From contig JACPGQ010000008.1 in the NCBI GenBank assembly GCA_016188975.1, forward strand, positions 17,812 to 81,811: a stretch of 64,000 nt of DNA, in the 5' to 3' direction. Shown here in pieces: positions 135 through 51,644 of this stretch. The notes beneath the pieces were generated by a model. That model had not been told where the DNA came from. It did no database searches and saw only the letters and a program-made list of their open reading frames with translations. This DNA is from Candidatus Levyibacteriota bacterium. Lineage in GTDB: Bacteria; Patescibacteriota; Microgenomatia; Levybacterales; UBA12049. The translations under genes and the position numbers were made by a program. The stretch's first letter is position 1. Each line of letters begins with the position of its first letter.

Positions 135-713
135 TCATGTGGCCAGCATTGCCTCCTCATCCCCGACAAGCATGACGCGTGATGCGCTCAGAATTGCAGC
201 GAGAAACGGGTCATTTCGCCTCTTGCGGAAGCGAAATTCATCTTCTGTCATTGCTGTGTAGTTTATCTCTCTACCTAATCTCGCTTCTTCATTGCGAACA
301 AGCACTGCCAGTTCCGGAAGGACAATCGTCCCGACAACCATAAAATCGATATCATCTGGGTTGTGCTTAATCCTCCTGATAAAAGCGCCAGAGAACATTG
401 CGAATTTTATCTTGCCGAGTTTTGCACGGTTTTTGAGGAATTCATTGCCAAGACCAATTGTTTTTGACCCAATTTCAAGGAGGTCATAATAGAACGGATA
501 ATTTTTATCAAGTGAGTAATAGACTCTATTTGCACGCTGTTCGCGGTTCAGTACTCCACGTTTCTCCAAAAACTGCAATTCCCGGCGAACTGCATTGATC
601 TCATCGCCTGTTCTGCGGACACATTCTCTCACATGGAGCATGTCTGATGGGTTCATGAGAAAAACCGTCAGTAATTTTATTCTGGACTTGGACGTGATGA
701 GATCTGACAACAT
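135..713 (-). CDS. Winged-helix transcriptional regulator with a C-terminal minimal nucleotidyltransferase-like domain
   Basis: The N-terminus is ArsR/MarR-like wHTH (VRRELQFLEKRGVL). The C-terminus has DIDFMVVG, typical of small nucleotidyltransferase folds. Confidence 0.45.
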   Translation of the reverse strand: MLSDLITSKSRIKLLTVFLMNPSDMLHVRECVRRTGDEINAVRRELQFLEKRGVLNREQRANRVYYSLDKNYPFYYDLLEIGSKTIGLGNEFLKNRAKLGKIKFAMFSGAFIRRIKHNPDDIDFMVVGTIVLPELAVLVRNEEARLGREINYTAMTEDEFRFRKRRNDPFLAAILSASRVMLVGDEEAMLAT

Positions 714-3124: not shown

Positions 3125-3229
3125 TGTCATTGCGAGCCCTGAAAGGGCGAAGCAATCTCTTATAATAACTTGCTTCAATTGTATAAGATTGCTTCGTCGG
3201 TCGCCTTAGGCGACCTCCTCGCAATGACA
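3125..3229. mobile_element. MITE-like element, copy A. Terminal inverted repeats are TGTCATTGCGAG and CTCGCAATGACA.
   Basis: Perfect 12-bp terminal inverted repeats enclose an internal palindrome (GCGAAGCAATCT / AGATTGCTTCG). The same architecture recurs at 30306-30397, 57680-57803 and 57917-58024. Confidence 0.6.
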
Positions 3230-3886
3230 CGAGAAGTTCTATATAATACAAACGTGACTAAGGAAGAAAAAGTCAAAGAAATTATTAAACGGCTCCGCAA
3301 GGTATACCCCCACCCAAAAACTGCGCTCAATTTCTCAACCCCCTTAGATCTTCTCGTCGCGACAATCATGTCAGCACAAACCACTGATAAATTAGTCAAT
3401 ACGCTCACACCAGCATTATTTGCAAAATATAAAACTGCCAAAGATTACGCTGATGCTCCCGTGGAAGACATCACAAAACTGATTAGCAAAGTGAACTTTG
3501 CTAATAATAAAGCAAAGAATATTAAAGCAGCAGCACAAATTATCGTTGAGAAGCACGAAGGAAAAGTGCCTGATAACATGGAGGAGCTCGATGCGTTGCC
3601 TGGAGTCGCAAGAAAGACTGCCAATGTTGTCCTTGGCAATGCGTATCACAAAGCAGAGGGAATCGTCGTTGACACGCACGTCATGCGTTTATCCCAAAAG
3701 CTTGGGCTAACTGATAAAAAAGATCCGGAGAAAATCGAGCAGGATCTGATGCAAATAGTTCCAAAAGAAGATTGGATCGACTTCGCCCACATGCTTATCC
3801 TCTTCGGCCGCGAATACTGCCCTGCACGTCCTCACAAATGCGACGATTGCCCCCTCAGCGACCTCTGCCCCGATCAAAAAGTTTAG
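3224..3886 (+). CDS. nth: Endonuclease III (HhH-GPD DNA glycosylase with a C-terminal 4Fe-4S Cys cluster)
   Basis: HhH-GPD motifs (LPGVARKTANVVL) and C-x6-C-x2-C-x5-C at the C-terminus. I prefer the start at MTREVLYN (3224) over the longest-ORF start at 3170, which reads through the MITE. Confidence 0.85.
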   Translation: MTREVLYNTNVTKEEKVKEIIKRLRKVYPHPKTALNFSTPLDLLVATIMSAQTTDKLVNTLTPALFAKYKTAKDYADAPVEDITKLISKVNFANNKAKNIKAAAQIIVEKHEGKVPDNMEELDALPGVARKTANVVLGNAYHKAEGIVVDTHVMRLSQKLGLTDKKDPEKIEQDLMQIVPKEDWIDFAHMLILFGREYCPARPHKCDDCPLSDLCPDQKV

Positions 3887-3975
3887 CCTTCCACCTTCCA
3901 GGTGTAAAGCTAAAAATCCGTCCTCCGTCATTCTTGCTTGTGCAAAACCTCTTGAGTTATAATCCAATAAGAAAC

Positions 3976-4377
3976 ATGGCTGAAAAAGTAAGACTATTGG
4001 GCGAAATCTTTAGAGGACTCGGTTTCAATAGAGCAGGAATTCGTTTGGAAAAAGAGAGTGAGGCACTTTTAGAATCCAAAGACTTACCGTTTGATGACCC
4101 ACGTATCGTAATAGGACTTAGAGAAGGAGAACAAGACGACGCTCAAAGATTACCCGATCAATTGTACCTCGGAAATAGACCTGTTTTTACAGCATTACAA
4201 GCCACCGAAAAATTAGGTATCGATAAAAGCAGTACTAGTAAAGCGATTCAAAGAGGAGCATTAGAAGCATCAAGAATCGGAACGCAAATTTTTGTCGATG
4301 GAGAATCCTTGGGAAACTATCAAAGAAGACTATCCCTAAGCGTAAAACGGGGCCCCAAGCCTAAAGCTAGAAAGTAA
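3976..4377 (+). CDS. Small HTH (excisionase/MerR-like HTH_17) domain protein
   Basis: The start is at MAEKVRLL. The longer track ORF (3772) overlaps the nth 3' end. The HTH-like segment is ALQATEKLGIDKSSTSKAIQRGALEASRIGTQIFV, with a basic tail. Confidence 0.35.
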   Translation: MAEKVRLLGEIFRGLGFNRAGIRLEKESEALLESKDLPFDDPRIVIGLREGEQDDAQRLPDQLYLGNRPVFTALQATEKLGIDKSSTSKAIQRGALEASRIGTQIFVDGESLGNYQRRLSLSVKRGPKPKARK

Positions 4378-4379
4378 AT

Positions 4380-5006
4380 TTACATCAACTCATCCAGTAG
4401 AGGACTAATATCAATATTTTCTAGTGATTGTTTCACAAGCGGCTTTTGCGCAATTTGCGGCGTGCCGTCTTCCCAGGTCGGGCGATCTTCTTTGAAGAAA
4501 ATTCCAGTTGCTACTTTTTCTTTCTCTCCTTCTTTGACTGGTCTCCGGAGTGGCCACTCTTCTGCTCTCTCAAACGCCTGCATCTTATTGGTCATATCAT
4601 GGCCTTGCTCCTGAAGTTTGTAGACTCTCTCATAAAACCAAGCGAATGTGTTGTGGTGATTGAACGTCACACATGGCTGCATGGTGTCTATGATTGAGAA
4701 ACCTTTGTGTTTGATCGCCTCAACGAGTAGCTCCGTCTCCTGTTTGTTATCCCCAGCATACCCCCGAGCGACGAATGTTGCTCCAGCTGAAAGTGCTAGC
4801 TGCATCGCATTGACCGGTGCTTCAACGACCGGCACCGGAGTTGCTTTATTTTTCTCACCAATGTTAGTTGTGGGTGAGAATTGTCCGGTTGTTAATCCAT
4901 ATACCTGATTGTCATGAATAAGAAGTGTCAAATTCACATTTCTCCTGGCTGCATGTAGCCAGTGATTGCCTCCCTCTGCAAATTGATCGCCGTCTCCCCC
5001 AATCAC
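4380..5006 (-). CDS. korB: 2-oxoacid:ferredoxin oxidoreductase beta subunit, C-terminal TPP-binding part. A frameshift separates it from the N-terminal part.
   Basis: GDGD...GGNHWLHAARRNVNLTLLIHDNQVYGLTTGQFSPTT is the canonical TPP-binding region of KorB/PorB. The ORF starts at a GTG embedded in a GTGA overlap with the upstream ORF. Confidence 0.7.
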   Translation of the reverse strand: MIGGDGDQFAEGGNHWLHAARRNVNLTLLIHDNQVYGLTTGQFSPTTNIGEKNKATPVPVVEAPVNAMQLALSAGATFVARGYAGDNKQETELLVEAIKHKGFSIIDTMQPCVTFNHHNTFAWFYERVYKLQEQGHDMTNKMQAFERAEEWPLRRPVKEGEKEKVATGIFFKEDRPTWEDGTPQIAQKPLVKQSLENIDISPLLDELM

Positions 5007-6274
5007 GATAACAGTCCAATCCCCGAGACGAGAACGACCTCCCAGGGCTTCAAATCCAGCTGAACAATAGCGTTCTTCAAAGAAACCCAGATTCCGAAGT
5101 CTCCACAGTTATGGAGGATTGCGTTTTCCGTGACGTATGCGTTTTCTGTATCGACCTCAAGATTGTGTACTGGACCCTTATATCGTTGTTTTTCAATCTT
5201 TCTGATTGGTAAGAATGCAAAGTTTTGGGTAAGTAAGTGCCTTTGCGGTACAAATTCTTGCTCATTATTTACGACCAAACCTAAAATTTCTTTTAACTTA
5301 ATGCAATCTCTAGGGCCATACACCCATATGGAATAGGCCGTCTTGTGCATTCCATGAGCTCCCTGAACAGATACAGTTGGTAGAATTGCCTGTCGTAACA
5401 GTAGCATTTTTACCTGCTCTGTAAGCTTCTTCGAAATAGTCCTCAAGCAAGCACTATGCCTTTTTCTGCTTTTTCCTACCCAGCCGTCACCACGCCACAT
5501 ACCCTTAATAAGTTCTTTCTGCTTTTCTTTGGGCAAAAACATTACAAAATCTGGAATCTTTTTATTTGCAGCCCCTTTTCCAAACCACCCCTCAAACATT
5601 TCTGAGAGATATGATGAATTAAATGAAAGGTCAATCGTCTTTCTCCCTTTTCGGTATCGTTTTATTGAGAAGAGACCAAAAAGCTTCTGCATAATTGCTA
5701 CGACATCCTCTGCATACATTTCTTCTCGGGAATGAAAGGTAAAGTTGATAGATCTTCTATGGACGTACCCCTCCGCTATATAATAGCCTGCCAGCCGGAG
5801 AAATTCCGCTTCCAATGGAACACTTGAGGGTAATCCCTTACTTTTTGTATCTTTCTTCCTTTTTATGAAGGAAATATCTATATGCCCTATATCTTTCTCA
5901 GTTTTCAAAATTGGATATACTAGACGATCGCCTTTTTTAAGTTCTCTTGCCTCGACCCACTGTGATTGGTATTCAAGATTTTTACGTCTTAAATGTTCAT
6001 GTTTTATCGTCAATACAGGATGTTCAGGTGTTAGCGTAGTTTCTCCAAAATATCTTGAAACAAGCCGATACATAATGCCATCATGTATGTGAGATAAAGC
6101 TTCAGTAACTTCATGAGGCATTCCATCGCTACCAATAACTCTATCTCCCGTTTTGAGAGTAGATATCAATGCCGTAGAGGGATTAGTTTGAATATAAGTC
6201 TCTGGTATAGTACATCCTGGGCACCAATTCGGCTTGTCGTAGTCAATTTGTAAATCTTGTAGTGTCGTTGCCAT
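5003..6274 (-). CDS. korB: 2-oxoacid:ferredoxin oxidoreductase beta subunit N-terminal part, carrying a 369-aa LAGLIDADG intein
   Basis: The extein MATTLQDLQIDYDKPNWCPG is followed by an intein (CTIPETY...ENAILHN), then the extein CGDFGIWVSLKNAIVQLDLKPWEVVLVSGIG. Confidence 0.75.
   Translation of the reverse strand: MATTLQDLQIDYDKPNWCPGCTIPETYIQTNPSTALISTLKTGDRVIGSDGMPHEVTEALSHIHDGIMYRLVSRYFGETTLTPEHPVLTIKHEHLRRKNLEYQSQWVEARELKKGDRLVYPILKTEKDIGHIDISFIKRKKDTKSKGLPSSVPLEAEFLRLAGYYIAEGYVHRRSINFTFHSREEMYAEDVVAIMQKLFGLFSIKRYRKGRKTIDLSFNSSYLSEMFEGWFGKGAANKKIPDFVMFLPKEKQKELIKGMWRGDGWVGKSRKRHSACLRTISKKLTEQVKMLLLRQAILPTVSVQGAHGMHKTAYSIWVYGPRDCIKLKEILGLVVNNEQEFVPQRHLLTQNFAFLPIRKIEKQRYKGPVHNLEVDTENAYVTENAILHNCGDFGIWVSLKNAIVQLDLKPWEVVLVSGIGLLS
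5108..6214 (-). other. Intein with a LAGLIDADG homing-endonuclease domain, inserted between WCPG and CGDF of KorB
   Basis: Block A starts with Cys (CTIPETYI). Block B is TPEHPVLT. The two dodecapeptide motifs are LAGYYIAEGYV and MWRGDGWVG. Blocks F/G are VHNLEVDTENAYVTENAILHN, followed by the +1 residue Cys. Confidence 0.8.
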
Positions 6275-9213: not shown

Positions 9214-9858
9214 TTATTCTAAGATGGTGATGCCGTTTGTCTCGTGTATAAAAAAATCGACGCCGTCTGACAATAGTTTAAAATACCCTGCATTGCTAAC
9301 GCGTACTTTCCTCGTCCTTGCAAATCCTGCATGAGTGAGAAACGCAGACATGAGACCTCCATGCGTCACGACCAATGCAGTTTTTCCAGCATATACAACA
9401 GCTATTTCCCGAACAAAAGTGATAAAGCGCGAGACGAGCTTCTCGTCACTTTCACCTCCTGGAATCAACGTATACCTAAATTTCTCATCATCTGACAATT
9501 TCTCATACTTCTCAAATATCTCCTTGAGCTCTTTACGAAGATCATCAGCTAGTCTCCCTTCATATTTTCCGTAATTATGCTCCCGAAGCAGCTGGGATGT
9601 ATCAACAGCGATCTTACGCTCAAGAGCAACGATCTCTGCAGTATGTTTGGCACGCAGAAGATCGGATGAAAACACTGCATCAAAATGTATTGCTAGAAGC
9701 GAGCGAGCTAACTGCCTGGCCTGTTCAAGTCCAAGGTCCGTGAGCGGAGAATCTTTATGTCCCTGGACCCTCCTTTGGACATTCCACTCAGTCTCTCCAT
9801 GGCGCGCCACGTACAATACACAATATTTAGTAGTTTGACGTTGGGTATGATTTATCAT
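9214..9858 (-). CDS. Histidine phosphatase family protein (phosphoglycerate mutase-like)
   Basis: RHGETEWN catalytic motif near the N-terminus and VVTHGG later. Confidence 0.65.
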   Translation of the reverse strand: MINHTQRQTTKYCVLYVARHGETEWNVQRRVQGHKDSPLTDLGLEQARQLARSLLAIHFDAVFSSDLLRAKHTAEIVALERKIAVDTSQLLREHNYGKYEGRLADDLRKELKEIFEKYEKLSDDEKFRYTLIPGGESDEKLVSRFITFVREIAVVYAGKTALVVTHGGLMSAFLTHAGFARTRKVRVSNAGYFKLLSDGVDFFIHETNGITILE

Positions 9859-9878
9859 AAATAATATATAAATATGTA

Positions 9879-11123
9879 TTAACGTACTGAAAAAACACGT
9901 TTCACATCTAAAATTCCTTTCAAAAATGCCTCTATATCCTCTTCATCATTATAAATGTTGAGACTTACCCGAACACTCGCTGGGACACCAAGTTTCTTGT
10001 GAAGTGGCAACGCACAATGGTGTCCAGCACGAACACAAATATTACTCTCTGCGAGAACTTGCGCTACATCATGAGCATGAATACCCGCTAAAGAAAACGA
10101 TATTACACCGCTCCGAACCGTCAAGTCAAGAGGCCCAAATACAATAACTCCCGAAATTGCACATAGTCTCTCAAGCAAATACTCAGTCAATCGCTTTTCA
10201 TGGGTACGAATTGTACCCATTCCAATTGCATTGAGGTAGTCTATTGCTGCGCCCAAACCAATGATTCCCTCAAGCGGCAAGGTTCCTGGTTCAAGTTTTT
10301 CCGGCACATTCTGAAGGGATGATTGAGAGAGAGTAACTTCTTTGATCATCTGACTTCCGTACAAAAGTGGATCTATAGTATTGAGTACATTTTCTCTTCC
10401 CCATATTACTCCCACCCCTGTAGGTGCTAACATTTTGTGACCAGAAAAAACCAAAAAATCACCTGCGCTATCCTGAACATCTACTTTCATATGAGGAACC
10501 GATTGAGCTGCATCGATAACAAGTACCGTGTCTTTTCGTTTTGTTACAAACTTGTTTCGTATTTTTTCAATACTGTTAATTGATCCAAGAACATTTGAAA
10601 CATGCGCAATCGAAATTACACTATAATTATTTGTACTAAGTGATTTATTTATGTTTCTTCCTGCCATAACTTTCTCAGTCACTATACCGCTTCTATCAAT
10701 TTCCAGGAAATCAAGTGGAGCGTTTTGTTGCGTTGTATAGTGTTGCCACGGAATAATATTTGAATGATGCTCCATTTCTGTAAGCAAAACGCCGCGGTTC
10801 TTGGAAAACGTTTTTCTGAGCGATGAAGCAAGGATATTAATCCCTTCTGTTGCACCATGGGTAAAGACAATTTCTTTCTCGTTTTTTGCATTGATAAATT
10901 GTGCCACTTTTTTCCGTACTTCTTCTACCCGCTCCGTAGCCTTCTCAGCGATTGCATAAATCCCTCGATGAATATTCGAATTGTATGATTCATAAAACTC
11001 TGAAACCGCATCAATTACGACTTGAGGTTTTTGACTTGTAGCTGCAGAGTCAAGATACACAAGAGGTTTACCATTCCTTTTTTTTCGAAAAATTGGAAAA
11101 TCTTTCTTATAGTTTCTCATCAC
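9879..11123 (-). CDS. sufS: Cysteine desulfurase SufS (class V aminotransferase fold)
   Basis: PLP-lysine context SGHKMLAPTGVG and active-site loop RAGHHCA. Confidence 0.85.
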   Translation of the reverse strand: MMRNYKKDFPIFRKKRNGKPLVYLDSAATSQKPQVVIDAVSEFYESYNSNIHRGIYAIAEKATERVEEVRKKVAQFINAKNEKEIVFTHGATEGINILASSLRKTFSKNRGVLLTEMEHHSNIIPWQHYTTQQNAPLDFLEIDRSGIVTEKVMAGRNINKSLSTNNYSVISIAHVSNVLGSINSIEKIRNKFVTKRKDTVLVIDAAQSVPHMKVDVQDSAGDFLVFSGHKMLAPTGVGVIWGRENVLNTIDPLLYGSQMIKEVTLSQSSLQNVPEKLEPGTLPLEGIIGLGAAIDYLNAIGMGTIRTHEKRLTEYLLERLCAISGVIVFGPLDLTVRSGVISFSLAGIHAHDVAQVLAESNICVRAGHHCALPLHKKLGVPASVRVSLNIYNDEEDIEAFLKGILDVKRVFSVR

Positions 11124-11144
11124 TCAATAAACGTGTCTGCTGTA

Positions 11145-11765
11145 TTATAAGGTACTATATGATACATATCCGCTACGCGATAATCTTTTCCTCATGATTT
11201 TTTGCTCAGCGTTTGATAAGAAAACCATCATTGTCTCAAAAAAACCAGAGACAATAAGCTCTATTGCTTGTTTTTCTGAAAGTCCTCTGCTTTGCAGATA
11301 AAATAGTTGCTCCTCATCAGGTTTCCCCACCGTTGATGCATGACCAGCCTTTAACTCATTCTCATCAATCTCAAGGGACGGCACACTTTTTCCCTTAGCA
11401 TCGTCAAAGAGCAGTACCTTTGAGGTAAAATACCCATCTGATCCCTTTGCTCCTTTCTGAATCGTGACTAATCCATCATTAGAAAAAGCAGATTTATCCC
11501 TAAAAACGCCACGGAGTATAGTAAGGCTTTTTGTTCTTGGAGCTTTATGAGTAATCTTTGTGTTGAATCCCAAAGTATTATTACCAGTTCCTAAAAACAG
11601 TCCTACAACGGTAACGCTTGCGCCTTCTCCCACCAATTCAACATCAACAATTACCTCGTTCTCTTTATCGTCAACCCAAATAAACGGGAGCATTCGTTTT
11701 TCATTTTTTTTGACTATAACTGATACGTGCTTCATCCATTTTCCAGACAAGGAGTATCCTTGCAA
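11145..11765 (-). CDS. sufD: Short SufD-like Fe-S assembly protein (C-terminal beta-helix core only)
   Basis: GHASTVGKPDEEQLFYLQSRGLSEKQAIELIVSGF is the SufB/SufD C-terminal signature. It is translationally coupled to sufB. Confidence 0.6.
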   Translation of the reverse strand: MQGYSLSGKWMKHVSVIVKKNEKRMLPFIWVDDKENEVIVDVELVGEGASVTVVGLFLGTGNNTLGFNTKITHKAPRTKSLTILRGVFRDKSAFSNDGLVTIQKGAKGSDGYFTSKVLLFDDAKGKSVPSLEIDENELKAGHASTVGKPDEEQLFYLQSRGLSEKQAIELIVSGFFETMMVFLSNAEQKIMRKRLSRSGYVSYSTL

Positions 11766-27585: not shown

Positions 27586-28203
27586 CTATGGTCGGATAAA
27601 CCTCGATGCTGAGACGACCAGAAATATTCCAGTCGCGTTGAGAAGAAATGAGATGAGGATAAACTGGTATGTTTTCATCTTCGAAATTCCCATGAGGCTT
27701 ATTCCAATTTCATCGGGAAAAGGAGACGCGATAATAAGTGCGCCAATAACAGGAAGCGTCCAACTAAAATATTTTGAATGAAGAATACGCCTAAAATGGT
27801 GGTCTCCATCAATATGCTCATAAAGTGACGCAATCTCCTGCGTGAGGTTATTTTTGATGATGTGAAAAATCGTCACATCTCCCACGACTCCTCCAAGGCC
27901 TGCAATAATGCCTATTTCAACTGGTGATAACCTCTCGGCAAGAATGAGTAAAATGATAGCTCCAGTCGCGACAGTAAAGGTGGAGACGAAAAGCATGCCT
28001 GCGATAAAAGCCCCTATGTAGCCTAACTCTCCTAATCCAAGCAGATAGGAATGGAGCGACTCATTCCGAAAGACAAAAAAAGCGAGAAGGAGTGAGAGGA
28101 AGAAAAACGAAAGATTTTTATATCTCCATGATCTCCAGTAGCTCATACTTTCAGTATAACAGAGACATTCGCTTGTCGATTGTACCCACACAGAAGCTCC
28201 CAA
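27586..28203 (-). CDS. Integral membrane protein, function unknown
   Basis: Multiple TM helices. The real start is possibly at the internal MSYWRSW. Confidence 0.3.
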   Translation of the reverse strand: MGASVWVQSTSECLCYTESMSYWRSWRYKNLSFFFLSLLLAFFVFRNESLHSYLLGLGELGYIGAFIAGMLFVSTFTVATGAIILLILAERLSPVEIGIIAGLGGVVGDVTIFHIIKNNLTQEIASLYEHIDGDHHFRRILHSKYFSWTLPVIGALIIASPFPDEIGISLMGISKMKTYQFILISFLLNATGIFLVVSASRFIRP

Positions 28204-29670
28204 TGTATTTTTCCTAACAGGAGCAGTATAATCCTCTCAGTGGAACAGGCAGTCTGGGATCTCAAATCGCAATGCGAGAACTATCGTAACTCTGAAGTAT
28301 TTGACTGTATGGTTGCAGAGTTTCTGCTGTCATATGGGAAATACTCTCCTGAGCTATGGGACGTTCTTAATCGGTACAAAGTTGAAACACTTGAGGAACT
28401 CAAGAAAAAACAAAGGGGGAAACTTTCTGCACTTCCTAAGCTTCACAGTCTTTTTTCTGATATCGAGATGCCACTTATTCGAGTGCTATGGGAGATGGAG
28501 CGGGAGGGAATACTTCTGGACAGTGACTGCCTGAAAAAAGTTGGACATGGATTGGATGCTGCAATTATGTCTGTTGCGGATGAGATTAAAAAAGAAGTCG
28601 GATTTGACATCAATCTCAACTCTTCTGTGCAAATAGGTAATTTTTTGGCAGAAAAAGTGGGGGTACCTCTTACAAGAACCAAAACCGGCCGCTTTGCGAC
28701 CAATGAAAACGAGATAGCACAGTACGCAGAACAATTTCCCATCATCAAACAACTTTTGACATACCGTGAACTGAGCAAGCTTCGCTCAACCTACGTTGAT
28801 AGCCTGATAACAAAAGTTGACAGGATGGGGCGTGTCCATACGACGTACCATCAAGTAGCGGTAAATACAGGAAGGCTTGCCTCTTCAAATCCAAACATGC
28901 AAAATATCCCTGTCACTTCCGAGTTTGGGCTCAAGATCAAATCCTGTTTTGTTGCAGGACCTCAAAAAAAACTTCTCTCGTTTGACTATTCCCAACAAGA
29001 ATTGCGCATCCTGGCGCATCTGACCGGAGAGGAAAAATTAATCGAGGCATTTCGCGCTGGTAGAGACGTCCATAGAACCACAGCGAGTCAGCTGTTTAAG
29101 GTCGACTATATGGATGTCACAAAGGAGCAACGGATTATTGCCAAGACAATAAATTTTGGCATTATTTATGGCATGAGTAGCTTCGGGATGAGTCAGGGAC
29201 TACACATTCCGGTAGAGGAGGCGCACATGTTTATTGACACGTTTTACCAAACGTATCCGAAAATCAAGACGTATTTCGACAATTATATTAATCGCGGGAA
29301 AATTGATGGGTTTGTCGAAACGCTTTTAGGGAGAAGACGGTATGTTTTTGAGTATCCAGGACAGAAGTTTATCGACAACAACATGCGCCGAGTACTTCTG
29401 AACTTCCCAATCCAAGGATCAGCAGCTGATCTTATGAAAAAAGCGATGGTGCAAATATATTATGATCTTCTTCAAAAAAATCACTCCATCAAATTGCTGC
29501 TGCAAATACATGATGATTTGGTTTTTGAAGTCCAAGACGATAAAGAGAAGATAACATCCATCATTGATCAGATAAAAGAAATAATGTGCAATATCTATCC
29601 ACTCGCAGTTCCGGTTGAGGTTGATGTGAAAATTGGAAAAAATTGGGGAGATATGGAGAAAATTTTATAG
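28180..29670 (+). CDS. polA: DNA polymerase I, polymerase (palm/fingers/thumb) domain only
   Basis: Motif A is DYSQQELRILAH, motif B is RIIAKTINFGIIYGMS, and motif C is QIHDDLVFE. The ORF begins within the tail of the 3'-5' exonuclease domain, with a TTG start at 28180 or ATG at 28309. No 5'-3' exonuclease region is nearby. Confidence 0.8.
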   Translation: MYPHRSSQCIFPNRSSIILSVEQAVWDLKSQCENYRNSEVFDCMVAEFLLSYGKYSPELWDVLNRYKVETLEELKKKQRGKLSALPKLHSLFSDIEMPLIRVLWEMEREGILLDSDCLKKVGHGLDAAIMSVADEIKKEVGFDINLNSSVQIGNFLAEKVGVPLTRTKTGRFATNENEIAQYAEQFPIIKQLLTYRELSKLRSTYVDSLITKVDRMGRVHTTYHQVAVNTGRLASSNPNMQNIPVTSEFGLKIKSCFVAGPQKKLLSFDYSQQELRILAHLTGEEKLIEAFRAGRDVHRTTASQLFKVDYMDVTKEQRIIAKTINFGIIYGMSSFGMSQGLHIPVEEAHMFIDTFYQTYPKIKTYFDNYINRGKIDGFVETLLGRRRYVFEYPGQKFIDNNMRRVLLNFPIQGSAADLMKKAMVQIYYDLLQKNHSIKLLLQIHDDLVFEVQDDKEKITSIIDQIKEIMCNIYPLAVPVEVDVKIGKNWGDMEKIL

Positions 29671-29702
29671 CTACGGCTTGAGAACCAAGCCTTCCTCTTA
29701 CA

Positions 29703-30405: not shown

Positions 30406-30846
30406 TTATACTTGGATAATACTTATCTTCCTCTTCTCCTCGTCTACATACTCAAACCTCACATCGATCCGTTTCTCGGGCAAATACTCACCCATCTTCT
30501 CAGCCCATTCTATGATCACAAGATTTTCGGGATTCCTGATGAAATCAAGTATACCTACGTCAATGATTTCATCTGGGAAACCTATTCTGTAGAGATCGAC
30601 ATGGAACAAATTTGCAATGTTTTTATTCTTCATACTCTGTACCTCATACTTTCGAAGTATAACGAACGTCGGGGAAATCATGCGCTTTTGTATGCCAAGT
30701 GCTTCACCAATTCCTTGAGAGAATGTCGTTTTTCCACTTCCTAGATCTCCATAGAGACAGAGTAAATTTCTTCCTTCAAGAAAGGTAAGAAGGTCAGCTG
30801 CTAATTTTTTTGTTTCTTTGGCTGAAAGAGTAACTTTTGTATTCAT
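30406..30846 (-). CDS. tsaE: tRNA t6A biosynthesis ATPase TsaE (YjeE)
   Basis: Walker A LYGDLGSGKTTF and 146 aa length. Confidence 0.75.
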   Translation of the reverse strand: MNTKVTLSAKETKKLAADLLTFLEGRNLLCLYGDLGSGKTTFSQGIGEALGIQKRMISPTFVILRKYEVQSMKNKNIANLFHVDLYRIGFPDEIIDVGILDFIRNPENLVIIEWAEKMGEYLPEKRIDVRFEYVDEEKRKISIIQV

Positions 30847-36614: not shown

Positions 36615-36665
36615 GGATTTGTTTCGCCCGCCTGCTTCGCAAGCGAATGCTTTGGCGTAGCCCTA
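36615..36665. repeat. GC-rich palindromic repeat in the mntH leader, related to 8375-8465
   Basis: CGCCCGCCTGCTTCGCAAGCGAATGC...GGCGGGCAGGG shares a ~20-nt core with the element upstream of korA, in inverted orientation. Confidence 0.4.
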
Positions 36666-36708
36666 TTGGCGGGCAGGGATTTCAGTATTCGAGTTTCGGA
36701 TTTATAAG

Positions 36709-37086
36709 CTATAGCTGTTTACAAATATTCTCACAGACATTCTTCAATTCGTCTTTCGGAACTCCCTGGAGATTTTTTAAATCATCAATAATTTTCTGTA
36801 TTTGTGGCGACGAGTGCACGACGTCTTCCGGATCAAGGCTTACTACTTGCTTTTTAATCTCATTGAGCTGTTCCTCGACTGTCCCCTGTAAGCGCTCTTT
36901 CGCAGCTTCTACCTTGTTACTCTCTCCCTGCACCTCTTTTTTTGTCTGTGCTCCTTTCACAAATCCTTGTCTGGTAAGTGAGAATTGCACGAGGACCAGA
37001 ACAATAACAAGCGCTATGAGGGCAAAAACTCCTTTCGATAATGAAGAGGACTCTGCAGTTTTTTTCGAATGGGCAGCATCTTTCAT
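36709..37086 (-). CDS. Hypothetical membrane-anchored coiled-coil protein
   Basis: An N-terminal TM followed by a K/E-rich helical region. Confidence 0.3.
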   Translation of the reverse strand: MKDAAHSKKTAESSSLSKGVFALIALVIVLVLVQFSLTRQGFVKGAQTKKEVQGESNKVEAAKERLQGTVEEQLNEIKKQVVSLDPEDVVHSSPQIQKIIDDLKNLQGVPKDELKNVCENICKQL

Positions 37087-37126
37087 GAGTTTATTGTAGG
37101 CAATTGGGGGCTGTTTTGCAATAAAA

Positions 37127-40860: not shown

Positions 40861-41472
40861 TCACATCTCCAGGCTTTTCCATAAGTATCTGCACCCAAGT
40901 GTCCGGTAGGGTTTCCACTTATTAGCAATAGTTAACGCAGTTTTCTCTGATGGTTCTTTTCGCAACCTATACAGTTTTTGCATCGCTCTCTTGAGCCCCA
41001 AATCACCATATGAAAAAACATCAAGTCTCCCCATGCTAAACATCAAAAACATCTCTGCTGTCCATCTGCCGATTCCTTTAACCTTAATCAGTTCCTGAAT
41101 AATTTCTTCATCTGTCATAATTTCAAACTGCTCAAAGAGAATTGCACTCTCCATCGTCTTTTTTGCCAGATCCTTGATGTAGGAGATTTTCTGCCAAGAG
41201 ATACCAACATCTCTAATCTTCTGATCAGGAATATCAAGCGTCAGTGCGGGGTCAACTTGCTCTTTCGGAAAAAGGGCAATAAATCTTTTCCAGATAGTAT
41301 CCGCTGCTTTTATTGAGAGTTGCTGAGAAACGACTGATTCGACAAGCTCAATGAAATAATTCCCTCCCTTGCGAGGGTCAATTGGCCCGACTTGTCCAAT
41401 AACCGATTTAAGGATAGGGTCTTTTTTGGCAAGGTATGTTGCAATCTCTTTTCCTGTAGGGCTTTTTTTCAT
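40861..41472 (-). CDS. HhH-GPD DNA glycosylase (AlkA / 3-methyladenine glycosylase II-like)
   Basis: The helix-hairpin-helix reads IKVKGIGRWTAEMFLMF, followed by the catalytic Asp region (FSYGDLG). Confidence 0.65.
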   Translation of the reverse strand: MKKSPTGKEIATYLAKKDPILKSVIGQVGPIDPRKGGNYFIELVESVVSQQLSIKAADTIWKRFIALFPKEQVDPALTLDIPDQKIRDVGISWQKISYIKDLAKKTMESAILFEQFEIMTDEEIIQELIKVKGIGRWTAEMFLMFSMGRLDVFSYGDLGLKRAMQKLYRLRKEPSEKTALTIANKWKPYRTLGCRYLWKSLEM

Positions 41473-41554: not shown

Positions 41555-41938
41555 GTGCTCTATCAATACATATGGTATACTCAAGAGGCTATGAACATAA
41601 AAGCGCTGCAAGAAAAGATAAAACGATTCAATGAAAAAACACGACCAAAATATAAACTCTACTCACAGACTGAGAAAGAAATATTAACAAAAACGATAAA
41701 ACTCAATGAGGAAGTTGGAGAACTCTGCAATGATATTCTTTCTGTTCTTAAGCTACAACGGAGGTCAAAACTCGCAAAATTTGACAAGCGGAATTTTTAT
41801 GAAGAATTTGCCGATGTCATTATCACTACCTTCCAACTCGGTAGCGTCGCGGGCGTCGACATTGAACGCGCGATTAATGATAAACTGAAAAAAATTGAAA
41901 AGCGATATCACTTGGAGAAAGATCGAATAGAAAGCTAA
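41555..41938 (+). CDS. MazG-like nucleoside-triphosphate pyrophosphohydrolase (small form)
   Basis: EEVGELCNDIL and EEFADVIITTFQL are EExxE/D MazG motifs. The start may instead be at MNIKALQ (41591), which has an AAGAGG Shine-Dalgarno. Confidence 0.6.
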   Translation: MLYQYIWYTQEAMNIKALQEKIKRFNEKTRPKYKLYSQTEKEILTKTIKLNEEVGELCNDILSVLKLQRRSKLAKFDKRNFYEEFADVIITTFQLGSVAGVDIERAINDKLKKIEKRYHLEKDRIES

Positions 41939-43468: not shown

Positions 43469-44266
43469 TCAATCTGCTGCCAAAGAACTCTCCTCAAGAG
43501 GAGCACAAAACGTTTTTGCAATTTCCTCTCTGTACTTTTGGATAAGCTCATCACGCGCTTTAGCAGCATCCTTATTCCAGCTAAAACGGTGCGCAGCATT
43601 TAAAGCATATTGAAGGTCAATATCACTTAAGAACCGCTCTGTAATATACGGTTCCATTGCATCAGGAGCTTGTTTTTCAGAATCCCAAACGAGCTCAAGG
43701 ACGGCCTTTCGTTCTAGCAGGTCTCTTTTCCCCTTTCCATTAGAAGTACTGTAGATTTGTTCATAGTACAGCGGTAACGGCGGTACATAGATATTTGCTC
43801 GTTTTGCTAAATTGACAGGAGAATCATAATATGTCTGTTCTACCGGATCTTCGTCGCAGGCAAGTTGACACTGCAGAAATATTCCGCGAATCTGTCTTGT
43901 TCCCATAAACGTTTCAATACCAACATAAAGATCGATCAGGTTTGAGTTATCAACCAAGACCGGGAAAAACGGCATCCCTTCTGCAAAACGGCTCCGAACC
44001 AAGGTATCATCGCCTTCAAGATACACTAACCCCTTACTAAACATTCTATCTATAACTAGCAACTCTTGCTCTCGTTTACCCAAACGAGAAAACTGATCAG
44101 GTGCTACAGCATGACCATCAGGAGAAATATTTGCTACTTGCTCAGGAGAGAGTATGCGCTCATTCTGAAGTGTTACTCCACCAATCGAGGGTTTTACCGC
44201 AGGCGGTATAATTCTCTGACGCGTCCTTATATCAGTAATAATAGCACCAGGTGCCTCTGTAATCAT
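43469..44266 (-). CDS. Hypothetical protein, family unrecognised
   Basis: 265-aa ORF convergent with the preceding gene. No motif that I can name. Confidence 0.3.
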   Translation of the reverse strand: MITEAPGAIITDIRTRQRIIPPAVKPSIGGVTLQNERILSPEQVANISPDGHAVAPDQFSRLGKREQELLVIDRMFSKGLVYLEGDDTLVRSRFAEGMPFFPVLVDNSNLIDLYVGIETFMGTRQIRGIFLQCQLACDEDPVEQTYYDSPVNLAKRANIYVPPLPLYYEQIYSTSNGKGKRDLLERKAVLELVWDSEKQAPDAMEPYITERFLSDIDLQYALNAAHRFSWNKDAAKARDELIQKYREEIAKTFCAPLEESSLAAD

Positions 44267-45985: not shown

Positions 45986-46867
45986 CTACTTCATCTCCAC
46001 TGGACCTAGGGGAATTGTATCATTAGGATCATCAATGAAAAAGTACAAAACAGGCCCAACAGCCTTCCCGTCAACCCGCTCTAAATACTTCATCACCTCA
46101 GGCGATCCACCAAGGCCTTTTCCCGTCCATTCGGCAGGTCCTGCATCTCCTATCACCACAACCATCGCTTTTCCATTGTGCGGGTTAACAACAAGCATTT
46201 TTCTGAATTTAAAAAACTCTGAGTACTCACGAACGCTATCATGAAACCCTGGAGCAAGAAACGTCTGCACTGCGATATAATATTTCTCTCTGTCAGATTC
46301 TTTTTGGGTCATTTCCGAACGAGAAGGTGCAAAATACCGCCACGCCCCAAGGCCTGGCGCCATACCAGACGAGTAGTATTTTGTTGCATCCTCATTAGTC
46401 GCAAAATGTGTCGCCATCGTATCTCCTGGATATCGTGCCAAATGCTGCTCAGCTCCGATTCTGCCGTAGCTTAGATTTAGGCGTTTACCATAAATCTCAG
46501 CTTTTACAGGAAAACCGAAACGCTCAGAGAGCATGGCTGTAATACGGTCCTCTTCTTCAGTTGTGAGCGGCCGGATCTCCTTAGGGATAGTGTTGAAAAG
46601 ATCATGTACAAGAAACGTAGTTTTATCAATACCTTTCTCACGCTCTTCCTGGACAGAAGTGGTGGAATTTCTCGCTCCTATGGAAGGCTGCTGCACAGAA
46701 AGGAGGAGTACTCCAACAGCACCAACTGAGAAATTACGCAAGTGGTGTGTCAGCCAGTGAAACGCTTCTCCATGCTTTTCTAAGATCTCTTTCTGTATCT
46801 CCCTATGCCGGTCTTGCCATTTATTTTTAAGATGTTCGTAGTGAGGTTTGTAATTTCTTTGTGACAT
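45986..46867 (-). CDS. Secreted or membrane-anchored protein with a C-terminal 3D/DPBB (RlpA-like) domain
   Basis: MLVVNPHNGKAMVVVIGDAGPAEWTGKGLGGSPEVMKYL resembles the double-psi beta-barrel of RlpA/3D-domain proteins. An N-terminal TM is present. Confidence 0.4.
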   Translation of the reverse strand: MSQRNYKPHYEHLKNKWQDRHREIQKEILEKHGEAFHWLTHHLRNFSVGAVGVLLLSVQQPSIGARNSTTSVQEEREKGIDKTTFLVHDLFNTIPKEIRPLTTEEEDRITAMLSERFGFPVKAEIYGKRLNLSYGRIGAEQHLARYPGDTMATHFATNEDATKYYSSGMAPGLGAWRYFAPSRSEMTQKESDREKYYIAVQTFLAPGFHDSVREYSEFFKFRKMLVVNPHNGKAMVVVIGDAGPAEWTGKGLGGSPEVMKYLERVDGKAVGPVLYFFIDDPNDTIPLGPVEMK

Positions 46868-50822: not shown

Positions 50823-51644
50823 CTATTTAACCTCTTCCCATGTATCAGTTGCGGTATCCTGCCGATATACTTTTCCAGTTTTATTTTCAACCTTATACCA
50901 GTTAAAGGTTGTCATATGGTCTGGAAAGGACTCAAAAACTTTAACAATTGAATATACATCTTCCTTATGATCAACTGTAATTCCAAACTTTGATCTTCCA
51001 CTTTCTTCAACTGCTTTTTTAAACTCCGTAACTTCAGAGAGTCCAGAAACTAAACTCACGCCCTCTTGCCCGTTGTTTTTCTGAGGTCTTAAAAGAAATA
51101 AGACAGAAATGATAAGTATAGTAATTCCGGTAAAAATAAGAACTTTATTCAGCTGAATAGCTTTATTTTTCTGTCCTCTATCCCTTAGCTGAAGCTGCTG
51201 CCAGAGAAGCAAAACCACGACATCAGCAATAAGTAAAATCAAAGAGGCAATAATCGGCGCAATATCGTAAAGAGTTAGCATAAAAGCTCCGGGTCGAAGA
51301 GTATACGCAGTGACAAAAAGAAGAATTGTGTTCGCGATAGTTGCAATAGAGGCAAGTTTTAGCGCTTCTGCATCTTTTGCAAAAAATAAAACTGTCGAGA
51401 CAATAAGAAGAATAAGAAATAATAAAACAAGCAAATTTCCTTCTAGCGCAAGATTTAAACCAGTTATTCCGCCAAATTTTAAAGATGTCCAGGGAAGAAG
51501 CGTTAGTGTCAAAACAGAAATAGTTAGCCCAAGCGCGGTTTTTCGAAGTCTTTCCAGTTTTTCTTTTGAGAAAGAATAATAAAATGTCTTAAGCGCCCAA
51601 AATGAAATAAGCCCCCAAGCAACCCAAAAAAAGGCAGTTTCCAT
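50823..51644 (-). CDS. Integral membrane protein, function unknown
   Basis: 273 aa with multiple TM helices. Confidence 0.35.
   Translation of the reverse strand: METAFFWVAWGLISFWALKTFYYSFSKEKLERLRKTALGLTISVLTLTLLPWTSLKFGGITGLNLALEGNLLVLLFLILLIVSTVLFFAKDAEALKLASIATIANTILLFVTAYTLRPGAFMLTLYDIAPIIASLILLIADVVVLLLWQQLQLRDRGQKNKAIQLNKVLIFTGITILIISVLFLLRPQKNNGQEGVSLVSGLSEVTEFKKAVEESGRSKFGITVDHKEDVYSIVKVFESFPDHMTTFNWYKVENKTGKVYRQDTATDTWEEVK

What the first reader, a model, noticed from the sequence alone, without database searches (positions are those of the whole stretch)
28180..29670. DNA polymerase I reduced to its polymerase domain; no 5'-3' or 3'-5' exonuclease modules upstream
The ORF aligns to Pol I from the very end of the 3'-5' exonuclease domain (…VFDCMVAEFLLSYGKYS, equivalent to the E. 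coli YAAEDADVTLQL region) through motifs A, B and C to the C-terminus, about 460-496 aa. Upstream is a divergently oriented membrane protein gene, so the N-terminal ~450 aa of a normal polA are not encoded here.

It is either a split polA with the exonuclease half elsewhere, or a naturally minimal Klentaq-like polymerase. Either is notable, because the Pol I 5'-3' exonuclease (FEN) is needed for Okazaki fragment processing and must then be supplied separately.
Basis: partly seen in the sequence, partly recalled or inferred. Interest (0 to 1): 0.5.

Follow-up and report, generated by a model that had tools for sequence, protein, structure and literature searches.

The report
Pol I stripped to polymerase domain
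In this Candidatus Levybacteria genome, DNA polymerase I is a conserved stand-alone 476-residue polymerase that has lost both of its exonuclease modules; this is a lineage-specific variant of a well-known enzyme rather than an artefact, and I could not find where the flap-removing nuclease is encoded.

Summary
The gene at 28240-29670 (+) encodes a 476-aa family-A polymerase (Pfam DNA_pol_A, E 2e-125). It has no 5'-3' exonuclease (FEN) domain and keeps only about 65 residues of the 3'-5' exonuclease domain.

The true start is GTG 28240.

It is not a frameshift or an assembly break:
- The 120 best-scoring homologue clusters (60-73% identical), all that the search listed, are nearly all about 475 aa and carry only the polymerase domain.
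- 14 of the 15 related loci whose upstream frame could be read have an in-frame stop 5-45 codons upstream, in varied gene neighbourhoods.
- The identical 476-aa product is called on 7 other contigs.

Every polymerase active-site residue I checked is kept, except E883 changed to D (HDD instead of HDE), a family-specific change. The structural model superposes on KlenTaq and Bst large fragment.

All other sampled bacteria whose polA lay clear of a contig end, including other candidate-phyla-radiation (CPR) phyla, have an 800-1000 aa polA carrying a FEN domain; the one exception is a 557-aa polA on a Bacteroidales chromosome (L043). A different CPR lineage has adjacent FEN and polymerase genes, and others have a stand-alone FEN.

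No FEN was found in the window or in 291 kb of Levybacteria-type DNA, so its location remains open. I rate this a new variant of a known kind, of modest interest.

The parts
28240..29670 (+). Polymerase-only polA gene: GTG start, 476 codons, TAG stop.
   Evidence: Pfam PF00476, E 2e-125. The family alignment fixes the N-terminus at this GTG. The identical 476-aa product P0243 is called on 7 other contigs. Codons were checked.
28240..28434 (+). Residues 1-65: the remnant of the C-terminal third of the 3'-5' exonuclease domain. It holds an Exo II-like VWDLKSQ, then FDCMVAEFLL, then a shortened Exo III-region helix. No catalytic residues remain.
   Evidence: Alignment with E. coli Klenow and full-length CPR polA genes. 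An exonuclease-domain profile matches only its positions 121-170 of 180. W6, K9, D22, L30 and G33 are invariant in 50 relatives. The region is modelled with pLDDT 86-97 as two short strands plus helices.
28435..29667 (+). Polymerase domain (thumb, palm, fingers), equivalent to about residues 521-928 of E. coli Pol I.
   Evidence: tblastn with E. coli Pol I: residues 495-924 match at 39% identity, E 2e-92. phmmer against KlenTaq gives E 1e-97. Foldseek against KlenTaq and Bst large fragment gives query-normalised TM-scores of 0.87-0.92.
28978..29019 (+). Motif A, SFDYSQQELRILAH. D249 corresponds to E. coli D705 and E254 to E710.
29131..29172 (+). Motif B, RIIAKTINFGIIYG. R298, K302, F306 and Y310 correspond to E. 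coli R754, K758, F762 and Y766.
29497..29529 (+). Motif C, LLQIHDDLVFE. H424 and D425 correspond to E. coli H881 and D882. D426 replaces E883, so the motif reads HDD instead of the usual HDE.
   Evidence: HDD occurs in 17 of 17 Levybacteria-type loci. HDE occurs in 134 of the 135 other polA loci where the motif was found. Only 2 of 149 library representatives carry HDD.
28180..28239 (+). In-frame upstream extension of the mechanical ORF (TTG 28180). It is not conserved and is most likely untranslated leader. It contains AGGAG at 28220-28224 and TATAAT at 28229-28234.
   Evidence: Relatives start at the position of GTG 28240. Sequence read.
27586..28146 (-). Divergently transcribed 186-aa multi-pass membrane protein with no Pfam or PHROG match. 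It occupies the place where the N-terminal half of a canonical polA would lie.
29675..29691 (.). GC-rich hairpin GGCTTGAGAACCAAGCC, 5 nt after the polA stop, between the convergent polA and Sua5/TsaC genes. It may be a shared terminator.
   Evidence: Terminator-like scan. This is a consensus match only.
30406..30846 (-). TsaE-like gene lying close to polA. In other CPR lineages TsaE sits immediately upstream of FEN and polA.
   Evidence: 35-42% identity to the genes annotated PF02367 TsaE in L165-L171 and L173.

Best explanation
This gene is the Pol I ortholog of a Candidatus Levybacteria-type lineage of the candidate phyla radiation. In the lineage's ancestor it lost the whole 5'-3' exonuclease (FEN) domain and about two thirds of an already inactive 3'-5' exonuclease domain.

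What remains is a 476-aa enzyme made of two parts. One is a 65-residue structural remnant that packs on the polymerase domain. The other is a complete thumb-palm-fingers polymerase.

I infer that it acts as a non-proofreading, Klenow-exo-minus or KlenTaq-like gap-filling and strand-displacing DNA polymerase. Its likely jobs are Okazaki-fragment maturation and base- or nucleotide-excision repair. The 5' flaps or RNA primers would be removed in trans by a separately encoded nuclease, most likely a stand-alone FEN located elsewhere in the genome.

Shown here: the domain architecture, its conservation across the clade, the intact polymerase active site, and the absence of nuclease modules nearby.

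Inferred: catalytic activity, the cellular role, and the existence of a trans-acting FEN.
For: **Architecture.** Pfam finds DNA_pol_A only. The NCBIfam Pol I model is matched only over positions 462-888.

**Conservation.**
- The 120 best homologue clusters, all that the search listed, are nearly all about 475 aa with PF00476 only, at 60-73% identity.
- The Levybacteria-type loci from genome and metagenome collections have 476-510 aa ORFs. In 14 of the 15 whose upstream frame lay clear of a contig end, an in-frame stop lies 5-45 codons upstream of the conserved N-terminus (5-17 in 11 of them); L004 stays open for 97 codons.
- The neighbouring genes differ between loci.
- The identical protein is called on 7 other contigs.

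**Contrast with other bacteria.** Every other sampled polA that lay clear of a contig end is 798-1011 aa with a FEN domain directly upstream, except the 557-aa gene in L043. This includes Dojkabacteria, Saccharibacteria, Uhrbacteria and Ryanbacteria.

**A distinct clade.** The family is monophyletic on a long stem in a neighbour-joining tree. It collapses to one cluster, plus two distant polymerase-only relatives, among 13,208 representatives at 50% identity.

**Active site.** R668, D705, E710, H734, R754, K758, F762, Y766, R841, N845, Q849, H881 and D882 (E. coli numbering) are all conserved. E883 is changed to D.

**Structure.** AlphaFold2 gives mean pLDDT 89.5. The model superposes on KlenTaq and Bst large fragment over about 470 of 476 residues.

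**Plausibility of a trans-acting FEN.** Stand-alone 290-300 aa FEN genes are common in other CPR lineages. In one lineage FEN and a polymerase-only polA are adjacent, translationally coupled genes. The window also encodes two HhH-GPD glycosylases, so base-excision repair needs a gap-filler.
Against: **No FEN found.** No FEN gene was found in the 64-kb window or in 291 kb of Levybacteria-type DNA. No Levybacteria-type FEN surfaced in two profile searches of the protein database. The trans partner is therefore assumed, not shown.

**A second polA is not excluded.** I could not exclude that these genomes also carry a canonical full-length polA elsewhere. In that case this gene would be an extra paralogue rather than the sole Pol I.

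**Untested activity.** The E883D change in motif C is untested and could alter activity.

**No clear sister group.** The long stem branch, with about 40% identity to every other polA, gives no clear sister group. Vertical descent with accelerated evolution is therefore inferred, not proven.
Confidence: 0.75

Rival explanations
1. The gene is an extra paralogue or xenologue. Under this reading, Levybacteria-type genomes keep a canonical full-length polA with a FEN domain elsewhere. This 476-aa protein would then be an additional, specialised family-A polymerase, for example for repair or lesion bypass, comparable to the accessory PolA2 and PolA3 groups.
For: The family sits on a long stem and is only about 40% identical to all other polA genes, with no clear sister group. 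It has an unusual HDD motif C. Its genomic position varies between relatives. Accessory family-A groups without a FEN domain are known in bacteria (PMC12926913).
Against: CPR genomes are small. No second family-A gene appears in 291 kb of Levybacteria-type DNA. None of the 73 full-length polA loci returned by the genome scan comes from the same assemblies as the 7 Levybacteria-type loci.

The protein's closest matches are bona fide Pol I orthologs, with NCBIfam Pol I as the best model. It keeps all Pol I motifs, including F762.
Confidence: 0.12
2. The FEN has truly been lost. Under this reading the lineage has no bacterial FEN domain at all, and Okazaki primers are removed by other nucleases, such as RNase H plus an unrelated 5' nuclease, or with help from the host cell.
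For: No FEN was found at either ancestral neighbour, TsaE or DUF3048, in the window. None was found anywhere in 291 kb of Levybacteria-type DNA. No Levybacteria-named FEN or matching contig length appeared among 240 listed FEN hits.
Against: The sample is about a third of one genome's worth of DNA and clusters around polA, so absence there says little. The database listings show only the best 120 hits and are dominated by Parcubacteria. FEN domains were found in 99.8% of complete bacterial genomes, and only five tiny endosymbionts lacked them (PMC12926913). Other CPR lineages that lost the polymerase from the locus still keep the FEN.
Confidence: 0.07
3. The apparent truncation is an artefact or a pseudogene: a frameshifted, mis-assembled or decaying full-length polA.
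For: Some apparent split polA genes elsewhere are clearly products of frameshift-ridden assemblies, as in L172 and L173. The NCBI record annotates the gene only as a hypothetical protein with a different start.
Against: The same architecture is seen in the 120 best-scoring clusters and in 19 loci from independent assemblies. The identical protein is found on 7 other contigs. An opposite-strand gene lies 93 nt upstream. No exonuclease remnant exists in any frame. The N-terminal remnant and the active site are under strong conservation.
Confidence: 0.02
4. The polymerase is derived from a phage or another mobile element.
For: PHROG family 17 (DNA polymerase) matches with E 2e-101. Polymerase-only family-A enzymes are known in T7-like phages (PMC10201439).
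Against: The best phage-collection matches are only 38-42% identical, no closer than cellular Pol I, and several of those top records look like bacterial contigs. The neighbours are housekeeping genes, including Sua5, TsaE, FtsEX, RF2 and a Crp-type regulator. There are no phage genes nearby.
Confidence: 0.03

Closest known systems
Bacterial DNA polymerase I (the PolA1 group; E. coli PolA, Taq, Bst)
   Same: The polymerase domain is orthologous, at 39% identity to E. coli residues 495-924. All the motif A, B and C and template- or dNTP-contact residues I checked are kept. The fold is the same, with a query-normalised TM-score of 0.87-0.92.
   Different: It lacks the FEN domain that defines the PolA1 architecture in PMC12926913. 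It also lacks about two thirds of the 3'-5' exonuclease domain. It is 476 aa instead of about 830-930. Motif C reads HDD instead of HDE. It scores below the NCBIfam full-length cut-off.
KlenTaq, the Stoffel fragment and Bst large fragment (laboratory truncations of Pol I)
   Same: Each is a FEN-less, non-proofreading polymerase with a vestigial exonuclease domain. They are the best structural matches.
   Different: Those are engineered fragments of about 540-580 aa that keep the whole vestigial exonuclease domain. This is a natural gene about 65-100 aa shorter, keeping only the C-terminal third of that domain.
Split or reduced polA genes in other CPR lineages
   Same: They belong to the same superphylum and show the same trend of separating or shedding the nuclease modules. 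The forms seen are: a 294-aa FEN gene followed by a 449-454 aa polymerase-only gene; a stand-alone FEN; and a fused FEN-plus-polymerase of about 715 aa with no exonuclease domain.
   Different: Their polymerase halves are only 37-39% identical to this one, carry no exonuclease remnant and keep HDE, so the events were independent. In those lineages the FEN is next to the polymerase or stays at the TsaE-DUF3048 locus. Here no FEN is nearby.
T7-like phage family-A polymerases with the exonuclease and polymerase halves split into two genes (Czernecki et al. 2023, PMC10201439)
   Same: Each is a natural family-A polymerase gene that encodes only the polymerase domain.
   Different: The phage subfamily differs, with a tyrosine at the third conserved position of motif B. 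Its split partner is an active proofreading exonuclease encoded next door. Here the gene is cellular, of Pol I type, and has no adjacent partner.
Bacteria with a stand-alone FEN and no Pol I (Tenericutes and Verrucomicrobia), and the FEN-less PolA1-like, PolA2 and PolA3 groups (PMC12926913)
   Same: They show that the polymerase and FEN functions of Pol I can be uncoupled, and that the 3'-5' exonuclease is often dispensable.
   Different: Those cases keep the FEN and lose the polymerase, or are accessory polymerases that retain a full-size, active or eclipsed, exonuclease domain. No CPR genomes are mentioned in that survey.

Membership tests
Family A DNA polymerases (Pfam PF00476) | A significant match to the DNA_pol_A profile over its full length. 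| tested here: met
   E 2e-125, 419 bits against a 34.3-bit cut-off, covering profile positions 3-381 of 381.
Family A DNA polymerases (Pfam PF00476) | Catalytic carboxylates in motifs A and C, and the motif B residues R, K, F/Y and Y. | tested here: met
   D249, E254, R298, K302, F306, Y310, H424 and D425 align with E. coli D705, E710, R754, K758, F762, Y766, H881 and D882. E883 is replaced by D426.
Family A DNA polymerases (Pfam PF00476) | The Klenow-type thumb-palm-fingers fold. | tested here: met
   AlphaFold2 pLDDT 89.5 and pTM 0.87. Foldseek against KlenTaq gives E 5e-38 and a query-normalised TM-score of 0.87; against Bst large fragment it gives 0.92.
Canonical bacterial Pol I (NCBIfam PRK05755 and TIGR00593 equivalogs; PolA1 architecture) | An N-terminal FEN-type 5'-3' exonuclease domain (PF02739 plus PF01367). 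| tested here: not met
   There is no Pfam hit in the ORF. There is no tblastn or hmmsearch hit anywhere in the window.
Canonical bacterial Pol I (NCBIfam PRK05755 and TIGR00593 equivalogs; PolA1 architecture) | A full-size DnaQ-like 3'-5' exonuclease domain (PF01612), whether active or inactive. | tested here: not met
   Only about 65 residues remain, corresponding to E. coli ~416-450 plus a degenerate Exo III helix. D355, E357, D424, Y497 and D501 are all absent or substituted.
Canonical bacterial Pol I (NCBIfam PRK05755 and TIGR00593 equivalogs; PolA1 architecture) | A score above the curated equivalog cut-off. | tested here: not met
   515.9 bits against a cut-off of 720, and 493.1 bits against 600.
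Canonical bacterial Pol I (NCBIfam PRK05755 and TIGR00593 equivalogs; PolA1 architecture) | It is the organism's single Pol I ortholog, with no second polA in the genome. | not testable with these tools
   Only 64 kb of this genome and 21-kb pieces of related genomes could be read.
Split polA (two-gene Pol I with the FEN encoded separately) | A separately encoded FEN gene in the same genome. | tested here: inconclusive
   None was found in the window or in 291 kb of Levybacteria-type DNA. None was recognisable among 240 listed FEN hits.
Split polA (two-gene Pol I with the FEN encoded separately) | FEN and polymerase genes that are adjacent or co-transcribed, as in the CPR loci L165-L168. | tested here: not met
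   In the window the upstream gene is a divergent membrane protein. In relatives the upstream genes are an ABC2 permease, an M10 peptidase, a rubrerythrin and an integrase.

The most novel reading that the evidence does not exclude
Levybacteria-type CPR bacteria may have no bacterial FEN domain at all. In that case this polymerase-only enzyme matures Okazaki fragments together with an unrelated, still unrecognised 5' nuclease, or with a host-supplied function. That would make them the first non-endosymbiont bacterial lineage without any Pol I-type 5' nuclease.
Probability: 0.07. Interest if true: 0.7.

Novelty: new variant of a known kind. Interest (0 to 1): 0.35.

Why it matters
This lineage shows how far bacterial Pol I can be pared down in nature. 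The result is a 476-aa enzyme, smaller than any of the classical laboratory fragments, that stays under strong purifying selection across a whole CPR lineage.

Together with the adjacent FEN/polymerase split genes and the stand-alone FEN genes seen in other CPR lineages, it indicates that the three modules of Pol I have been uncoupled repeatedly in this superphylum. That bears on three questions:
- how small-genome episymbionts mature Okazaki fragments;
- how polA is used as a completeness or marker gene for CPR genome bins;
- whether such natural minimal, mesophilic KlenTaq-like polymerases, with an HDD motif C, could serve as enzyme scaffolds.

It does not change any general principle. Loss of proofreading and separate FEN genes are already documented in other bacteria.

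Tried and rejected
**Frameshift or remnant upstream: rejected.** I ran tblastn with the E. coli FEN and exonuclease domains and with 18 N-terminal halves of full-length polA genes. I also ran hmmsearch --max with FEN and exonuclease profiles on six-frame ORFs. None gave a hit.

**FEN next to polA in relatives: not found.** I looked in the 19 Levybacteria-type loci and in the more distant polymerase-only locus L175.

**Locating the lineage's FEN in the protein database: failed.** I used two profile searches, one with a 275-aa FEN profile and one with a 389-aa profile of the FEN plus the N-terminal half of the exonuclease domain. I then tried to link hits to Levybacteria-type contigs by organism name and by matching contig length. 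No match was found. The listings show only 120 hits and are dominated by Parcubacteria.

**FEN proteins of 372-374 aa as the missing partner half: rejected.** P0135 and P0168 end just before Exo II, which made them look like partners. Their loci, however, are full of broken genes and are frameshift-ridden assemblies.

**Stand-alone FEN loci L165-L171 as Levybacteria-type genomes: rejected.** Their TsaE and DUF3048 orthologs are only 30-42% identical to those in the window.

**HDD motif as a marker for a full-length sister group: rejected.** The two full-length HDD representatives are only 44% identical to each other. The closest polymerase-only sister, P0244, has HDE.

**Looking up the exact NCBI product on its contig: failed.** P0001 is not indexed.

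**Neighbour-joining tree: uninformative.** It gave no informative sister group.

**Literature searches: nothing found.** Searches combining CPR, Patescibacteria, Levybacteria or Candidate Phyla Radiation with Pol I, polA or flap endonuclease terms found no description of this architecture. One search was rejected for syntax.
Full report
**What is in the sequence**

The window comes from a Candidatus Levybacteria metagenome-assembled genome. The NCBI product of this gene is MBI2442504.1 (HYV40_01185), annotated as a 453-aa hypothetical protein on an 84,659-bp contig. The mechanical ORF runs from 28180 to 29670 on the + strand and is 496 aa long.

Its only Pfam domain is DNA_pol_A, at residues 117-491, with E 2e-125. 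The NCBIfam Pol I equivalog models align only over their C-terminal halves (positions 462-888 of 889). The scores fall below the full-length cut-offs, at 516 against 720 bits.

Ninety-three nucleotides upstream of the real start, a 186-aa membrane-protein gene runs the other way, at 27586-28146 on the - strand. There is therefore no room for an N-terminal half.

**Start codon**

An alignment with 17 relatives shows that the conserved N-terminus (M-x-K-A-V-W-D-L-K-S-Q) coincides with GTG 28240. The TTG at 28180 adds 20 non-conserved residues. The NCBI start, ATG 28309, removes the invariant residues W6, K9 and D22.

The 476-aa version with a Met start is identical to P0243, a product called on 7 contigs from independent assemblies. 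The gene is therefore 28240-29670.

**Not an artefact**

Three lines of evidence rule out a frameshift or assembly break.
- The 120 best database homologues, at 60-73% identity and all that the search listed, are almost all 453-497 aa and carry PF00476 only.
- Nineteen Levybacteria-type loci came from genome collections, JGI metagenomes and contig look-ups (L002-L011, L085-L092, L174). In 14 of the 15 whose upstream frame lay clear of a contig end, an in-frame stop lies 5-45 codons upstream of the conserved N-terminus (5-17 in 11 of them); L004 stays open for 97 codons.
- The upstream genes differ between loci: an ABC2 permease, an M10 peptidase, a rubrerythrin, and a membrane protein in the window.

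Three kinds of search found neither nuclease domain in the window or in 291 kb of Levybacteria-type DNA. They were tblastn with the E. coli FEN domain (residues 1-323) and 3'-5' exonuclease domain (residues 324-520), tblastn with 18 N-terminal halves of full-length polA genes, and hmmsearch --max with FEN and exonuclease-domain profiles.

**What the N-terminus is**

I aligned the protein with E. coli Klenow and with full-length CPR polA genes. The correspondences are:
- VWDLKSQ matches the Exo II stretch (E. coli NLKYD, residues 420-424).
- VFDCMVAEFLL matches E. coli AFDTMLESYIL (residues 439-449).
- E. coli residues 455-490 are deleted.
- A degenerate equivalent of the Exo III helix leads into the thumb (IEMPL, E. 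coli 529-533).

All five DEDDy residues are absent or substituted, so proofreading is impossible.

The 65-residue remnant has several invariant positions. It is modelled confidently, with pLDDT 86-97, as two short strands and four helices. This argues that it is retained for structural reasons.

**The polymerase**

All the active-site and substrate-contact residues I checked are conserved: R668, D705, E710, H734, R754, K758, F762, Y766, R841, N845, Q849, H881 and D882 in E. coli numbering. The single exception is E883, which is D here.

The HDD form of motif C occurs in 17 of 17 Levybacteria-type loci. It occurs in only 1 of 135 other polA loci where the motif was found, and in 2 of 149 library representatives.

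The AlphaFold2 model has mean pLDDT 89.5 and pTM 0.87. It superposes on KlenTaq and on Bst large fragment over about 470 of its 476 residues, with query-normalised TM-scores of 0.87-0.92. From established knowledge of Klenow fragment, D705 and D882 are the essential metal ligands and E883 is auxiliary. A Glu-to-Asp change keeps the carboxylate, so I expect an active enzyme, but this is inference.

**Distribution**

In the genome scan, 7 species-representative genomes carry the 476-510 aa form. They are labelled Levyibacteriota, Patescibacteria group or Parcubacteria, and some are evidently mislabelled.

All the other loci in that scan whose polA lay clear of a contig end have a 798-998 aa polA with a FEN domain directly upstream, with one exception noted below under "Seen in passing". 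They are 36-44% identical to this gene and include four Dojkabacteria, four Saccharibacteria, one Uhrbacteria and one Ryanbacteria locus.

In a library of 1.84 billion representatives clustered at 50% identity, the family is a single cluster (P0076). There are two more distant polymerase-only relatives: P0244 (478 aa, 45% identical, same N-terminus, HDE) and P0296 (461 aa, 40% identical). Neither has a FEN next to it. Nearly all the other top representatives are 800-1000 aa.

A neighbour-joining tree gives a tight Levybacteria-type clade on a long stem with no clear sister. Phage collections hold nothing closer than 38-42% identity.

**Context from other CPR lineages (found while hunting for the FEN)**

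A FEN-domain profile search returned many stand-alone FEN proteins of 290-302 aa. Some are named Portnoybacteria, Parcubacteria or Patescibacteria. Reading their contigs showed a conserved neighbourhood of T2SSE, TsaE, FEN, then a polymerase or nothing, then DUF3048, holA and S20.

- In L165-L168 (three JGI samples), a 294-aa FEN gene is followed by a separate 449-454 aa polymerase-only gene. The two overlap by 4 nt or are 19 nt apart. That polymerase has no exonuclease remnant, keeps HDE, and is only 37-39% identical to the Levybacteria-type enzyme. It is therefore an independent split.
- In L169 and L170 the FEN stands alone, with no polymerase beside it.
- Fused FEN-plus-polymerase proteins of about 715 aa with no exonuclease domain also exist (P0435, P0463).
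- Deferribacteres-type polA genes of 800 aa have a strongly shortened exonuclease domain.
- Two apparent splits, L172 and L173, come from assemblies riddled with broken genes, and I discount them.

Reduction and uncoupling of Pol I modules is thus recurrent in CPR. The Levybacteria-type form is one distinct outcome. In the window, TsaE lies near polA (30406-30846, -) but in convergent orientation, with Sua5 between them.

**What remains open**

I could not find the FEN of this lineage. Both FEN-profile searches list only the best 120 hits.

A survey of more than 3000 complete bacterial genomes found a FEN domain in 99.8% of them. Only five tiny endosymbionts lacked it (PMC12926913). That survey does not mention CPR.

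My best estimate is therefore that a stand-alone FEN exists elsewhere in the genome. The alternatives are that a second full-length polA exists (about 0.12) or that the lineage truly lacks a FEN (about 0.07). Neither is excluded.

**Mechanism proposed**

- Shown: a complete, conserved polymerase module with no nuclease modules.
- Inferred: it fills gaps and displaces strands at Okazaki-fragment junctions and after base or nucleotide excision. The window itself encodes two HhH-GPD glycosylases. It does so without proofreading, as KlenTaq or exonuclease-deficient Klenow fragment do. The displaced RNA or DNA flap would be cut by a nuclease acting in trans, and ligase would seal the nick.

**Novelty and score**

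I found no paper describing this architecture in CPR. The family-A reclassification paper reports exonuclease/polymerase splitting only in T7-like phages and calls it the first such case in family-A polymerases (PMC10201439).

The individual ingredients are all known: FEN-less family-A enzymes, inactive exonuclease domains and stand-alone FEN genes. The sequences are already in public databases, labelled DNA polymerase or hypothetical protein. I therefore rate this a new variant of a known kind, with interest 0.35.

**Seen in passing**

An intein sits in the PFOR beta subunit, with a break downstream. The NCBI start for this gene is wrong. A 557-aa FEN-less polA occurs on a Bacteroidales chromosome.

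Noticed in passing
window 4380-6274 (-): The pyruvate:ferredoxin oxidoreductase beta subunit is interrupted by an intein with a LAGLIDADG homing-endonuclease domain, inserted after NWCPGC and ending in HN followed by C. After 34 residues of C-extein the frame stops (...VSGIGLLS*), and the rest of the subunit (VIGGDGD...) continues in another frame. About 50 positions of the TPP_enzyme_C domain appear to be missing. This could be a deletion with frameshift, a pseudogene or an assembly error.
   Followed up: partly
window 28309 versus 28240: The NCBI record for this gene (HYV40_01185, MBI2442504.1, 453 aa, 'hypothetical protein') starts at ATG 28309. That cuts off 23 conserved residues. GTG 28240 is supported by the family alignment and by an identical 476-aa product called on 7 other contigs.
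   Followed up: yes
window 29497-29529; loci L002-L011 and L085-L092: Motif C of this polymerase family reads HDD instead of the near-universal HDE (E. coli E883 changed to D). It occurs in 17 of 17 family loci, against 1 of 135 other polA loci and 2 of 149 library representatives. The closest polymerase-only sister, P0244, keeps HDE.
   Followed up: partly
L165:10001-12269, L166:10001-12231, L167, L168: In another, AT-rich CPR lineage, polA is split into two adjacent genes. A 294-aa FEN gene and a 449-454 aa polymerase-only gene overlap by 4 nt or lie 19 nt apart, within a conserved TsaE-FEN-Pol-DUF3048-holA block. The arrangement was seen in three different JGI samples.
   Followed up: partly
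L169:1123-3082; L170:4399-6495: In these CPR loci a stand-alone FEN sits at the same TsaE and DUF3048 neighbourhood, but with no polymerase gene beside it. In L170 the next gene is an Exo_endo_phos (AP endonuclease-like) gene followed by two glycosylases, which looks like a small repair cluster.
   Followed up: no
P0435, P0441, P0444, P0463, P0469; L027, L062, L069, L078: Compact fused polA forms exist. One is about 711-720 aa with FEN and polymerase Pfam domains and no exonuclease-domain hit. Another is the 798-800 aa Deferribacteres-type polA, whose 3'-5' exonuclease domain is cut down to roughly 100 residues.
   Followed up: no
L043 (CP070654.1, Bacteroidales MAG chromosome), ORF 9554-11227: This polA ORF is only 557 aa. 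It has just a partial 3'-5' exonuclease match and no FEN within 10 kb on either side, on a record labelled as a complete chromosome. It may be another natural FEN-less polA or a broken gene.
   Followed up: no
window 3170-3886 (+), 40861-41472 (-), 41555-41938 (+): The window encodes two HhH-GPD base-excision glycosylases and a MazG-like nucleotide pyrophosphohydrolase. Base-excision repair is therefore present and needs a gap-filling polymerase.
   Followed up: no
window 43469-44266 (-), 45986-46867 (-), 50823-51644 (-), 135-713 (-), 3772-4377 (+), 36647-37099 (+): Six ORFs of 150-293 aa have no Pfam match at E<=0.001. Three of them are FEN-sized, but none matched the FEN profile.
   Followed up: partly
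window 1-64000: Nearly all genes are on the - strand, and cumulative GC skew falls steadily. polA is one of the few + strand genes, convergent with Sua5 and TsaE.
   Followed up: no
L172, L173 (and L169, from the same ERZ25039515 assembly as L173): These public assemblies carry many genes broken into pieces, including T2SSE, DUF3048, FemAB, holA and polA. Apparent split genes from them should not be trusted.
   Followed up: yes
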